From assembly GCA_009914755.4 (NCBI GenBank), contig CP086569.2, positions 384,001 to 448,000 of the forward strand: a stretch of DNA of 64,000 nt, written 5' to 3'. This document shows, piece by piece, positions 22,111-22,769 of this stretch. Every line of letters starts with the position of its first letter. Position 1 is the first letter of the stretch. Below the pieces are notes generated by a model. The model saw only the letters and a program-made list of their open reading frames with translations. It was not told where the DNA came from and searched no databases. The position numbers and the translations under genes are program-made. The DNA comes from the human T2T-CHM13v2.0 reference genome, Homo sapiens.

Positions 22111-22769
22111 TTTTTTTTTCAGATGGAGACTTCCTCTGTCCCCCAGGCTGGAGTGCAGTGGTGCAATCTCGGCTCACTGCAACCTCCGCCTCCCGGGTTC
22201 AAGCGATTCTCCTGCCTCAGCTTCCCAAGTAGCTGGGATGACAGGTTCCTGCCACCATGCCTGGGTAATTTTGGAATTTTTAGTAGAGACGGGGTTTCAC
22301 CATGTTGGTCAGGCTGGTCTCGAACTCCTGATCTCAGGCTGGAGTGCAGTGGCATGATGTCGACTCACCGCAATCTCTGCCTCCCAGGTTGAATCGGTTC
22401 TCCTGCCTCAGCCTCCCAAGTAGCTGGGATTACAGGCACCCGCCACCAGGCCAGGCAAATGCTTGTATTTTTAGTAGAGACGTTTCACCGTGTTGGTCAG
22501 GCTGGTCTCGAACTCCTGACCTCAGGCTGGAGTGCAGTGGCGTGATCTCAACTCACTGCAACCTCTGCCTCCCAGGTTGAATCGATTCTCCTGCCTCAGC
22601 CTCCCAAGTAGCTGGGATTACAGGTGCCTGCCACCAGGCCAGGCAAATGTTTGTATTTTTAGTAGAGACAGGGTTTCACCATGTTGGTCAGGCTGGTCTC
22701 GAACTCCTGACCTCAGGTGATCCTCCCGCCTTGGCCCCCCAAAGTGCTAGGGTGACAGGCATGAACCAC
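22111..22769 (-). mobile_element. Alu with an internal ~189-bp segment present three times in tandem
   Basis: Segment 'ctggagtgcagtgg...ggtctcgaactcctga(c/t)ctcagg' repeats at ~22149-22337, 22338-22526 and 22527-22715. Alu 3' end sits before it and 5' end after it. Confidence 0.8.

What the first reader, a model, noticed from the sequence alone, without database searches (positions are those of the whole stretch)
22111..22769. Alus carrying internal tandem duplications of the same ~165-190-bp core (here x3; a second case at 52774-53228 x2)
In the Alu at 22111-22769 the segment from 'ctggagtgcagtgg' to 'ctcctgacctcagg' is present three times head-to-tail. In the Alu at 52774-53228 a similar internal segment ('aacctccacctcccaggttcaag...ctgacctcaag') is present twice. 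Independent recurrence of the same type of internal duplication suggests a preferred breakpoint, for example replication slippage between the short direct repeats 'cctcagg'/'cctcaag' and the right-arm start.
Basis: seen in the sequence. Interest (0 to 1): 0.5.

Follow-up and report, generated by a model that had tools for sequence, protein, structure and literature searches.

The report
Alu tandem triplication; unrelated Alu fusion
One Alu repeat really has had a 190-base internal piece copied three times in a row, which is a known and ordinary kind of Alu-derived minisatellite; the supposed second example is two different Alus joined together, so there is no evidence for a shared preferred breakpoint.

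Summary
Case 1 (22109-22780, minus strand) is real. It is a single S-type Alu in which consensus positions 64-254 occur three times head to tail (191, 188 and 191 nt). Both junctions are identical (Alu 258|64) and lie in a 4-nt microhomology, CCTG. Units A and B share 10 derived substitutions that unit C lacks, so the array grew in two steps: an early duplication, then a much later one. A 14-nt target-site duplication with one mismatch brackets the whole composite.

Case 2 (52789-53228) is not a duplication. Its two parts (Alu 1-221 and Alu 64-282) differ at linked subfamily markers (197, 200, 219 and linker length). They are no more alike than unrelated Alus in this window, and they meet without microhomology. 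They are two separate Alus joined out of register.

The junctions differ (258|64 versus 221|64). CCTG is one of 121 equivalent 4-nt repeat pairs in an Alu. The junction is absent from the held part of a published catalogue, about 650 Alu-derived arrays. Alu-derived minisatellites are a known class. TRF arrays cover 37.6% of the window, so a tandem-duplication-prone region explains the "recurrence" better than an Alu-internal hotspot.

The parts
22088..22101 (.). Case 1: 3' copy of the target-site duplication (AATAATAATAAGAG on the Alu strand)
   Evidence: It matches the 5' copy at 13 of 14 positions. The position-aware score of 11 is reached by 20% of true flank pairs and 3.2% of mismatched pairs in this window.
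22102..22119 (-). Case 1: A-rich tail (A11 followed by CAATAGT)
   Evidence: Read directly from the sequence.
22120..22147 (-). Case 1: Alu 255-282, the single-copy 3' end of the right arm; it begins with CCTG
22148..22338 (-). Case 1: unit C (Alu 64-254, 191 nt), the 3'-most unit. It lacks the 10 changes shared by A and B and has about 11 private changes.
22339..22526 (-). Case 1: unit B (Alu 64-254, 188 nt, with a 3-nt deletion). It is the sister of unit A.
   Evidence: The B|C junction reads CTCCAG|CCTGAGATCAGG.
22527..22717 (-). Case 1: unit A (Alu 64-254, 191 nt), the 5'-most unit
   Evidence: A-B identity is 92.1%, higher than all 820 background Alu pairs. The A|B junction reads CTCCAG|CCTGAGGTCAGG.
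22718..22780 (-). Case 1: Alu 1-63, the single-copy 5' end of the left arm
   Evidence: A sub-threshold Rfam Metazoa_SRP match lies at 22663-22779 on the minus strand.
22779..22792 (.). Case 1: 5' copy of the target-site duplication (AATAATAATAACAG). It abuts and overlaps Alu position 1-2.
52756..52788 (-). Case 2: A15 tail of Alu Q (52774-52788) followed by a (GA)9 tract (52756-52773)
   Evidence: Read directly from the sequence.
52789..53008 (-). Case 2: part Q, Alu 64-282. Its right arm is Y-type (G197, G200, C219, 22-nt linker) and its left arm is S-type.
53009..53228 (-). Case 2: part P, Alu 1-221, with an S-type right arm (C197, T200, G219, 21-nt linker). It lacks its own 3' end and tail.
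   Evidence: The junction reads GGAGGTT|CTTGAGG, with no microhomology.

Best explanation
These are two unrelated, ordinary rearrangements in a region that is very rich in Alus and tandem repeats.

Case 1. A single S-type Alu inserted once. Early in its life, within roughly the first 20-30% of its age, positions 64-254 were duplicated in tandem by misalignment of the 4-nt direct repeat CCTG (Alu 64-67 and 255-258). The mechanism is inferred to be replication slippage or another microhomology-mediated event, as in the Haber-Louis type of minisatellite birth. After the upstream unit had gained about 10 more substitutions, an unequal exchange or slippage between the two existing units added a third. 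This copied the same junction and gave A-B-C with the tree ((A,B),C). The structure and the order of events are shown by the data. The enzymology is inferred.

Case 2. Two independently inserted Alus of different subfamilies lay in the same orientation. They were joined out of register when the 3' 61 nt and tail of the upstream Alu, any spacer, and the 5' 63 nt of the downstream Alu were lost. The most likely cause is an end-joining deletion without microhomology. The independence of the two parts is shown. The deletion route is inferred.

The apparent recurrence reflects the regional density of Alus and tandem duplications, not an Alu-internal hotspot.
For: Case 1:
- Both junctions are identical, at Alu 258|64 with a 4-nt overlap.
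- A and B share 10 derived changes. Seven of them (132C, 136T, 140T, 144C, 199A, 202C, 230T) occur in at most 2 of 45 other window Alus, and unit C lacks all of them.
- A-B identity is 92.1%, above all 820 background pairs; A-C lies in the top 4%.
- All three units carry 93A together with 175T, a combination found in 1 of 45 window Alus.
- The TSD AATAATAATAA[C/G]AG ends exactly at the Alu boundary, with a likelihood ratio of about 6.
- At most one post-insertion change is shared by all three units, which bounds the first duplication to the first 20-30% of the element's age.

Case 2:
- P and Q differ at 197, 200, 219 and in linker length, each carrying the consensus state of a different subfamily.
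- These markers co-vary among the window's own Alus: G197 and G200 occur together in 7 of 45, and C219 occurs only with them.
- The chance that random divergence would produce this pattern is about 1e-5.
- P-Q identity is 87.6%, which is typical of unrelated Alus; 15% of background pairs are at least as similar.

Context:
- The window holds about 78 Alu segments.
- TRF arrays cover 37.6% of the window.
- Other Alu-containing arrays here use different junctions.

Literature:
- Alu-derived minisatellites initiated at short flanking direct repeats are a described class, with 2,663 Alu-derived arrays in hg19 (PMC3389668).
- Diverged Alus promote end-joining that leaves partial Alus (PMC4356517).
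Against: - The microhomology is only 4 nt, shorter than the 5-10 nt of the Haber-Louis model as quoted in PMC3389668.
- The case 1 TSD is low-complexity (AAT repeats), and its likelihood ratio of about 6 is modest.
- The B-C identity of 83.8% is no better than background, so including unit C in the same original element rests on the identical junction, the 93A/175T combination and the TSD.
- Case 2 has no outgroup or pre-deletion allele available, and the absence of a TSD there is uninformative, because 17% of genuine single Alus in the window score as low.
- Both downstream breakpoints fall within 0-4 nt of Alu 64. PMC3389668 reports that AluS positions 59-137 are spanned by more tandem repeats than other regions, so a weak positional preference cannot be ruled out from two loci.
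Confidence: 0.78

Rival explanations
1. One reading: both loci are internal tandem duplications of one Alu, produced independently at a preferred breakpoint near Alu 64 by slippage between short direct repeats.
For: In both loci the downstream part starts at Alu 64-66. Case 1 does use a short direct repeat. PMC3389668 reports more tandem repeats spanning AluS positions 59-137.
Against: Case 2's two parts belong to different subfamilies and are only as similar as background pairs. The upstream breakpoints are 258 and 221. Case 2 has no microhomology. CCTG is one of 121 equivalent 4-nt pairs. The junction is absent from about 650 catalogued Alu arrays. The arrays that do recur in the catalogue and in this window have a period of about 135 nt, in left/right monomer register.
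Confidence: 0.04
2. The first junction of case 1 was made during retrotransposition rather than later in the DNA. The L1 reverse transcriptase, copying Alu RNA from the tail, jumped from nt 64 back to nt 258 using the CCTG microhomology; or the source element already carried the duplication. Only the third unit arose later by unequal exchange.
For: At most one change (175T, at a CpG) is shared by all three units, which is compatible with a duplication at time zero. A single TSD pair brackets the whole composite. PMC3389668 argues from the excess in young families that initiation may be linked to retrotransposition, and that known DNA-level models explain only 6% of cases.
Against: Nothing distinguishes this from a duplication shortly after insertion; the timing bound only says the first 20-30% of the element's age. 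No second locus with the junction was found, but the searches had almost no power.
Confidence: 0.15
3. Case 1 began, like case 2, as two neighbouring independent Alus fused by a microhomology-mediated deletion (258|64). Only the A/B step is a true duplication.
For: B-C identity is at background level and unit C shares none of the A/B-specific changes. The window is dense with same-orientation neighbouring Alus.
Against: The TSD spans the whole composite, with a likelihood ratio of about 6. All three units carry 93A together with 175T, found in 1 of 45 window Alus. A-C identity is in the top 4% of pairs. All three units carry the same subfamily states.
Confidence: 0.07
4. Case 2 is not a deletion between neighbours. 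It is either a chimera made at insertion, when the reverse transcriptase switched from a Y-type Alu RNA at nt 64 to an S-type Alu RNA at nt 221, or a 5'-truncated Alu Q that inserted with loss of target sequence, including the 3' end of P.
For: The two parts come from different subfamilies and share one tail. The junction is blunt, as expected for template jumps or end joining. About one in five recent Alu insertions is 5'-truncated, by my calculation from Table 4 of PMC2912911.
Against: No TSD brackets the composite, though this is uninformative. A simple nested insertion is excluded, because the rest of P (Alu 222-282) is not downstream of Q's tail. A deletion between abundant neighbouring Alus needs fewer special events.
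Confidence: 0.2
5. Case 2 is a true internal tandem duplication in which one copy was later overwritten across Alu ~128-219 by gene conversion from an Alu of another subfamily.
For: Both copies share 83A (at a CpG), 153G and 163G.
Against: It needs a duplication plus a conversion tract of at least 90 nt. Outside the markers the copies still differ at about 15 sites, which is the level seen between unrelated Alus. The junction has no microhomology.
Confidence: 0.06

Closest known systems
Alu-derived minisatellites, also called TE-derived tandem repeats (Jurka & Gentles 2006, Gene 365:21, as described in PMC3389668; Ahmed & Liang 2012, PMC3389668)
   Same: Case 1 is a head-to-tail array of an internal Alu segment, flanked by a short direct repeat present in the Alu itself. 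It expanded stepwise in place and has few units; the catalogue's AluS mean is 2.31 units.
   Different: The flanking direct repeat is 4 nt, not the 5-20 nt (mostly 7 nt) reported. Unit identity of 84-92% is below the catalogue's 95% cut-off, so the array is older than the catalogued ones. The 258|64 junction was not found among the roughly 650 Alu entries of the held part of Supplementary Table 3.
Left-monomer tandem arrays of Alu, period about 135 nt (cluster 6 of multilocus tandem repeats in PMC3389668 Supplementary Table 3)
   Same: These are also tandem repeats made from inside an Alu, and they are also present in this window at six loci.
   Different: They use the long left/right monomer homology (up to 15 exact nt at spacing 135) and recur at many loci. 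Case 1 has a period of 188-191 nt at a minimal microhomology. Case 2 has an offset of about 157 nt and no homology at the join.
Alu-associated end-joining deletions between diverged Alus (HI-NHEJ; Morales et al. 2015, PMC4356517), in contrast with Alu recombination-mediated deletion (PMC2041999)
   Same: Case 2 shows two same-orientation, diverged Alus (about 12% different) joined so that partial Alus remain. This is the outcome reported for diverged Alu pairs.
   Different: ARMD proper gives one in-register chimeric Alu, whereas case 2 is out of register by 157 nt. The pre-deletion state is not available here, so the deletion itself is inferred.

Membership tests
Alu SINE (dimeric, 7SL-derived) | About 282-nt dimeric consensus with an A-rich linker and a 3' A-tail | tested here: met
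   BLAST to the consensus at 88-92% identity. The consensus was validated against 28 window copies. A11 and A15 tails are present.
Alu SINE (dimeric, 7SL-derived) | Homology to 7SL/SRP RNA | tested here: inconclusive
   Rfam Metazoa_SRP matches on the minus strand score 60.4, 31.4, 29.2 and 18.8 bits, all below the gathering score of 70, as expected for Alu fragments.
Alu SINE (dimeric, 7SL-derived) | Target-site duplication bracketing one insertion | tested here: inconclusive
   Case 1 has a 14-nt TSD with one mismatch exactly at the boundaries, with a likelihood ratio of about 6. Case 2 has none, but 17% of true single Alus in the window score as low.
Alu-derived minisatellite (TE-derived tandem repeat) | At least two head-to-tail copies of the same internal TE segment with identical junctions | tested here: met
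   In case 1, three units of Alu 64-254 with both junctions at 258|64. Case 2 has only one junction, so this cannot be assessed there.
Alu-derived minisatellite (TE-derived tandem repeat) | Units derive from one another locally: they share derived mutations or are closer to each other than to other family members | tested here: met
   In case 1, A and B share 10 derived changes and are more alike than all 820 background pairs, and unit C shares 93A with 175T. In case 2 this feature is NOT met: the subfamily markers differ and the identity is at background level.
Alu-derived minisatellite (TE-derived tandem repeat) | Array flanked by short direct repeats of 5-10 nt (Haber-Louis initiation, as quoted in PMC3389668) | tested here: inconclusive
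   Case 1 has an exact direct repeat of only 4 nt (CCTG; 5 of 6 if extended as CCTGRG). Case 2 has none.
Alu recombination-mediated deletion (in-register chimeric Alu) | A single full-length chimeric Alu with the crossover in homologous register | tested here: not met
   Case 2 joins Alu 221 to Alu 64, which gives 440 nt of Alu sequence rather than one 282-nt element.
Alu recombination-mediated deletion or end-joining deletion between Alus | An ancestral or orthologous allele with two complete Alus and intervening sequence | not testable with these tools
   No primate genome collection is available. The prokaryotic and metagenome collections hold almost no Alu DNA.
Left-monomer (about 135-nt) Alu arrays | Period of about 130-140 nt in left/right monomer register | tested here: not met
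   The periods are 188-191 nt in case 1 and about 157 nt in case 2.

The most novel reading that the evidence does not exclude
The first duplication in case 1 was made at the moment of insertion, by an L1 reverse-transcriptase jump within the Alu RNA from nt 64 back to nt 258 at a 4-nt microhomology. Nt ~64 would be a recurrent stopping or switching point that also produced the 5' end of part Q in case 2. This would give a retrotransposition-coupled origin for some of the roughly 94% of TE-derived tandem repeats that current DNA-level models do not explain (PMC3389668).
Probability: 0.08. Interest if true: 0.4.

Novelty: already known. Interest (0 to 1): 0.1.

Why it matters
It matters little beyond annotation. 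Case 1 is a clean, datable example of how a minisatellite is born inside an Alu: a minimal 4-nt microhomology, then a second expansion step that reuses the same junction. Case 2 is a reminder that, in Alu-dense DNA, two neighbouring elements fused out of register look like an internal duplication. Subfamily-diagnostic positions and a background distribution of pairwise identity tell the two apart. If a true positional preference near Alu 64 existed, it would bear on how TE-derived tandem repeats start, but nothing here supports that.

Tried and rejected
1. Inversion hypothesis for case 2. A lone Alu 221-282 fragment on the + strand at 52182-52243 looked like P's missing 3' end turned around. 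It was rejected because the fragment is AluJ-type (GAGCTATGATC, GAGACCCTG) while P is S-type, and no Alu 1-63 lies to its left.

2. Nested insertion of Q into P. This was rejected because the rest of P is not found downstream of Q's tail.

3. Absence of a TSD as evidence for case 2. I dropped this after the calibrated control showed it is uninformative. My first TSD control was inflated by the window's microsatellites, so I replaced it.

4. Genome-wide search for the junctions. No primate genome is available. A degenerate 23-mer covering both junctions found nothing in genome contigs and one chance bacterial match in metagenome contigs. The calibration scan found only 44 normal Alu 23-mers, on 43 stretches, in genome contigs, so the null has no power. 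Two scans failed because the pattern had too few specified bases.

5. Search of the Ahmed & Liang Supplementary Table 3 for the junctions. There were no occurrences, but the held file is truncated and lists only arrays with at least 95% unit identity.

6. Longer imperfect homology around Alu 64 and 255 that might favour this misalignment. None was found. The best local alignment of these regions is the ordinary homologous register, 85-99 against 251-265.

7. Jurka & Gentles 2006 is not held in the library. It is cited only through the description in PMC3389668.

8. Whether neighbouring extra left monomers elsewhere in the window are local duplicates. Pairwise identity alone could not decide this for most of them.

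Full report
**What the window is.** The window is primate DNA, very dense in Alus. BLAST with an Alu consensus gives about 78 non-redundant Alu segments, roughly 30% of the 64 kb. It matches the majority consensus of 28 full-length window copies at 278 of 282 positions, and three of the four differences are at CpG sites. Consensus coordinates can therefore be trusted. Both elements in the finding lie on the minus strand. Rfam agrees independently: it gives sub-threshold 7SL/SRP matches on the minus strand, and three hits each to the mir-1268 and mir-3135 miRNA families (Alu-derived, by my own knowledge), across 22111-22780. All are below gathering score, so they are Alu pieces and not RNA genes.

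**Case 1, anatomy.** TRF reports period 188 x 3.0 copies with 88% matches at 22144-22717. On the Alu strand the layout is:

| Part | Window coordinates |
|---|---|
| 5' TSD copy | 22792-22779 |
| Alu 1-63 | 22780-22718 |
| Unit A | 22717-22527 (191 nt) |
| Unit B | 22526-22339 (188 nt) |
| Unit C | 22338-22148 (191 nt) |
| Alu 255-282 | 22147-22120 |
| A-rich tail | 22119-22102 |
| 3' TSD copy | 22101-22088 |

Each unit is Alu 64-254. Both junctions read CTCCAG|CCTGAG, which is Alu 258 joined to Alu 64 with the four bases CCTG common to both partners. The junction 20-mer occurs only here in the window, against none expected by chance. The partner of the 'cctcagg' end is the distal end of the right arm, not its start.

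**Case 1, history.** A column-by-column comparison with the consensus and with 45 other window Alus gives the following counts.
- A and B share 10 derived changes that C lacks. Seven of them (132C, 136T, 140T, 144C, 199A, 202C, 230T) occur in at most 2 of 45 other Alus.
- A has 2-3 private changes, B about 9 events, and C about 11.
- All three units share only 93A (8 of 45 elsewhere, so possibly inherited from the source element) and 175T (a CpG transition, 6 of 45). Together these two states occur in 1 of 45 window Alus.

Pairwise identity points the same way:

| Pair | Identity | Background pairs at least as similar (of 820) |
|---|---|---|
| A-B | 92.1% | none |
| A-C | 89.0% | 4% |
| B-C | 83.8% | 48% |

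The tree is therefore ((A,B),C). A first duplication happened when the element was almost unmutated; the 95% bound is the first 20-30% of its age. A second duplication came after about 10 further substitutions, roughly 60% of the time elapsed since the first. Because the second event reproduced the same junction, it was an unequal exchange or slippage between existing units, not a new breakpoint.

**Case 1, one insertion or two?** The direct repeat AATAATAATAACAG / AATAATAATAAGAG ends exactly at Alu position 1-2 on one side and follows the A-rich tail on the other. My first control for this was inflated by microsatellites, so I calibrated on the window's 30 ordinary full-length Alus. A score this high is reached by 20% of true flank pairs and 3.2% of mismatched pairs, a likelihood ratio of about 6. 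Together with the 93A/175T combination and the common subfamily states, a single original element is well supported, though not proven.

**Case 2.** The composite is P (Alu 1-221, 53228-53009) joined to Q (Alu 64-282, 53008-52789), followed by A15 and a (GA)9 tract. The join reads GGAGGTT|CTTGAGG, with no shared bases. If the CT is filler, Q starts at 66. In the roughly 153-nt overlap, P and Q differ at 19 positions.
- The differences include three non-CpG transversions and one indel at subfamily markers. P has C197, T200, G219 and a 21-nt linker. Q has G197, G200, C219 and a 22-nt linker.
- Each state is the consensus of a different Alu lineage.
- The window's own Alus confirm that these markers are linked: G197 and G200 occur together in 7 of 45, and C219 occurs only with them.
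- Random divergence after a duplication would reproduce this with a probability of about 1e-5.
- The overall identity of 87.6% is ordinary for unrelated Alus here; 15% of background pairs are at least as similar.

P and Q are therefore different elements.

**Case 2, how the parts were joined.** This is inferred. P lacks its own 3' end and tail, so it cannot have inserted in this form. A nested insertion is excluded because the rest of P is not downstream of Q's tail. The simplest route is an end-joining deletion between two same-orientation neighbours, which are plentiful in this window. Partial Alus left by end joining near diverged Alus have been shown experimentally (PMC4356517). A template-switch chimera, or a 5'-truncated insertion with target loss, remains possible. 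About a fifth of recent Alu insertions are 5'-truncated, by my calculation from Table 4 of PMC2912911. The absence of a TSD carries no weight.

**Is there a preferred breakpoint?**
- The upstream breakpoints are 258 and 221. One junction has microhomology and the other has none. One locus is a duplication and the other a fusion.
- The only agreement is the downstream breakpoint at Alu 64-66/68. With about a dozen composite Alu junctions in the window, some coincidence is expected. Alu 221 is itself an end point three times (26709, 52182, and P) and Alu 85-88 several times.
- Within an Alu there are 121 exact 4-nt direct-repeat pairs 100-250 nt apart. There are also far longer ones at spacing 135 (up to 15 nt, the left/right monomer register) and at spacing 166 (CCAGCCTGG). 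CCTG at 64/255 is therefore not a favoured site, and no longer imperfect homology surrounds it.
- The published hg19 catalogue of TE-derived tandem repeats lists 2,663 Alu-derived arrays. In the held part of its table, about 650 Alu entries, even the junction 12-mer is absent. A large multilocus cluster of arrays of about 135 nt spanning Alu ~2-140 is present (PMC3389668).
- That monomer-register type is also what recurs in this window, at six loci, including four tandem left monomers at 61700-62228.

The paper does note that AluS positions 59-137 are spanned by more arrays than other regions. This keeps a weak positional effect from being excluded.

**Attempted wider search.** No primate genome is available in these tools. 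A degenerate 23-mer covering both junctions found nothing in the prokaryotic genome collection and one chance match inside bacterial sequence in the metagenome collection. The genome collection holds only 44 copies of the normal Alu 23-mer, as human contamination, so the null result has no power.

**Context.** TRF arrays cover 37.6% of the window: 18.9% with periods of 1-6 nt, 16.6% with 7-99 nt, and 14.3% with 100 nt or more. Other Alu-containing arrays use yet other junctions. Eight units of Alu 178-282 plus (AAT)n plus 27 nt of flank lie at 677-1945, and three whole Alus with their spacer lie at 11242-12199. A 29-nt x 53 minisatellite lies about 500 nt from case 1.

**Comparison with what is known, and verdict.** Case 1 is an Alu-derived minisatellite in the sense of Jurka & Gentles 2006 and Ahmed & Liang 2012. 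It is older than the catalogued ones (84-92% unit identity against their 95% cut-off) and uses a shorter flanking repeat (4 nt against mostly 7 nt). Case 2 is an out-of-register fusion of two Alus. It works like the end-joining outcomes described for diverged Alu pairs and is not an in-register ARMD chimera. Neither is new in kind. The most novel reading still open is that the first duplication of case 1 arose by a reverse-transcriptase jump during insertion, with nt ~64 as a recurrent switch point. I put this at about 8%. Interest is low.

Noticed in passing
window 677-1945 (minus strand): An eight-unit tandem array with a period of 153-179 nt. Each unit is Alu 178-282, plus an (AAT)n tract of variable length, plus 27 nt of non-Alu flank (ACCAATTGAAAGTTAAAAGTTTCTGGA). 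The join runs from the flank ...CTGGA to Alu GGCTGAGG. This is a minisatellite spanning an Alu/flank boundary, with an internal microsatellite that varies between units.
   Followed up: partly
window 8718-8994, 26937-27211, 27812-28225, 30452-30712, 53502-53911, 61700-62376: Six loci where an extra Alu left monomer (about 133-136 nt) sits directly upstream of a full Alu in monomer register; 61700-62228 has four left monomers in a row. This matches the multilocus ~135-nt arrays (cluster 6) in Supplementary Table 3 of PMC3389668. Neighbour identity alone could not show whether each is a local duplication.
   Followed up: partly
window 11242-12199: Three complete Alus, each with an A-rich tail ending in ...GAAATCTT, repeated with a period of 317 nt. 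The second and third share rare variants (CCTGTCATCCC, GGTTAACA, ATCGCCTGAAC), while the first looks like a different subfamily. This is a tandem duplication of an Alu plus flank, possibly with later conversion.
   Followed up: partly
window 23285-24926: A 29-nt minisatellite (TGGAGAGGGGATATATGGAGAGGCTGCTC) with about 53 copies at 91% match, roughly 500 nt from case 1.
   Followed up: no
whole window; for example 17852-19723, 35077-36888, 38604-40642, 47554-48483, 49063-50046, 50494-51720, 53957-55266: TRF arrays cover 37.6% of the window. They include kilobase-scale degenerate tetranucleotide arrays ((ATCC)n of about 470 copies, (TGGA)n of about 456, and GATA/TAGA types), an AT-rich 2-kb array and a (GAG)n array of 1.3 kb. 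This is an unusually tandem-repeat-rich region, and it may be subtelomeric-like.
   Followed up: partly
window 52182-52243 and 26709-26770: Two isolated Alu 3' fragments both start at consensus position 221, the same position at which part P of case 2 ends. The fragment at 52182 is AluJ-type and is unrelated to P. The triple coincidence at 221 is unexplained and is probably chance or an alignment-boundary effect.
   Followed up: partly
loci L002-L044 (genome contigs): 43 stretches in GTDB species-representative bacterial and archaeal assemblies carry an exact 23-nt Alu left-arm sequence. Most are low-coverage contigs of 200-1300 nt, which is human contamination. A Roseivirga MAG (CBDIHZ01) has six Alu-bearing contigs of 8-17 kb. 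A 187-kb Micromonospora contig and a 144-kb Acidobacteriaceae MAG contig also carry a match.
   Followed up: no
window 22140-22646: Rfam sub-threshold hits to miRNA families that I take to be Alu-derived (my own knowledge, not tested here): mir-1268 three times on the minus strand, mir-3135 three times on the + strand, and mir-1285. The first two are each repeated once per unit of the case 1 array. All are far below gathering scores and simply reflect Alu sequence.
   Followed up: no
window 60042-60797: A non-Alu tandem repeat with a period of 282 nt, 2.7 copies and 87% match, starting next to a (TG)n tract. Its identity was not examined.
   Followed up: no
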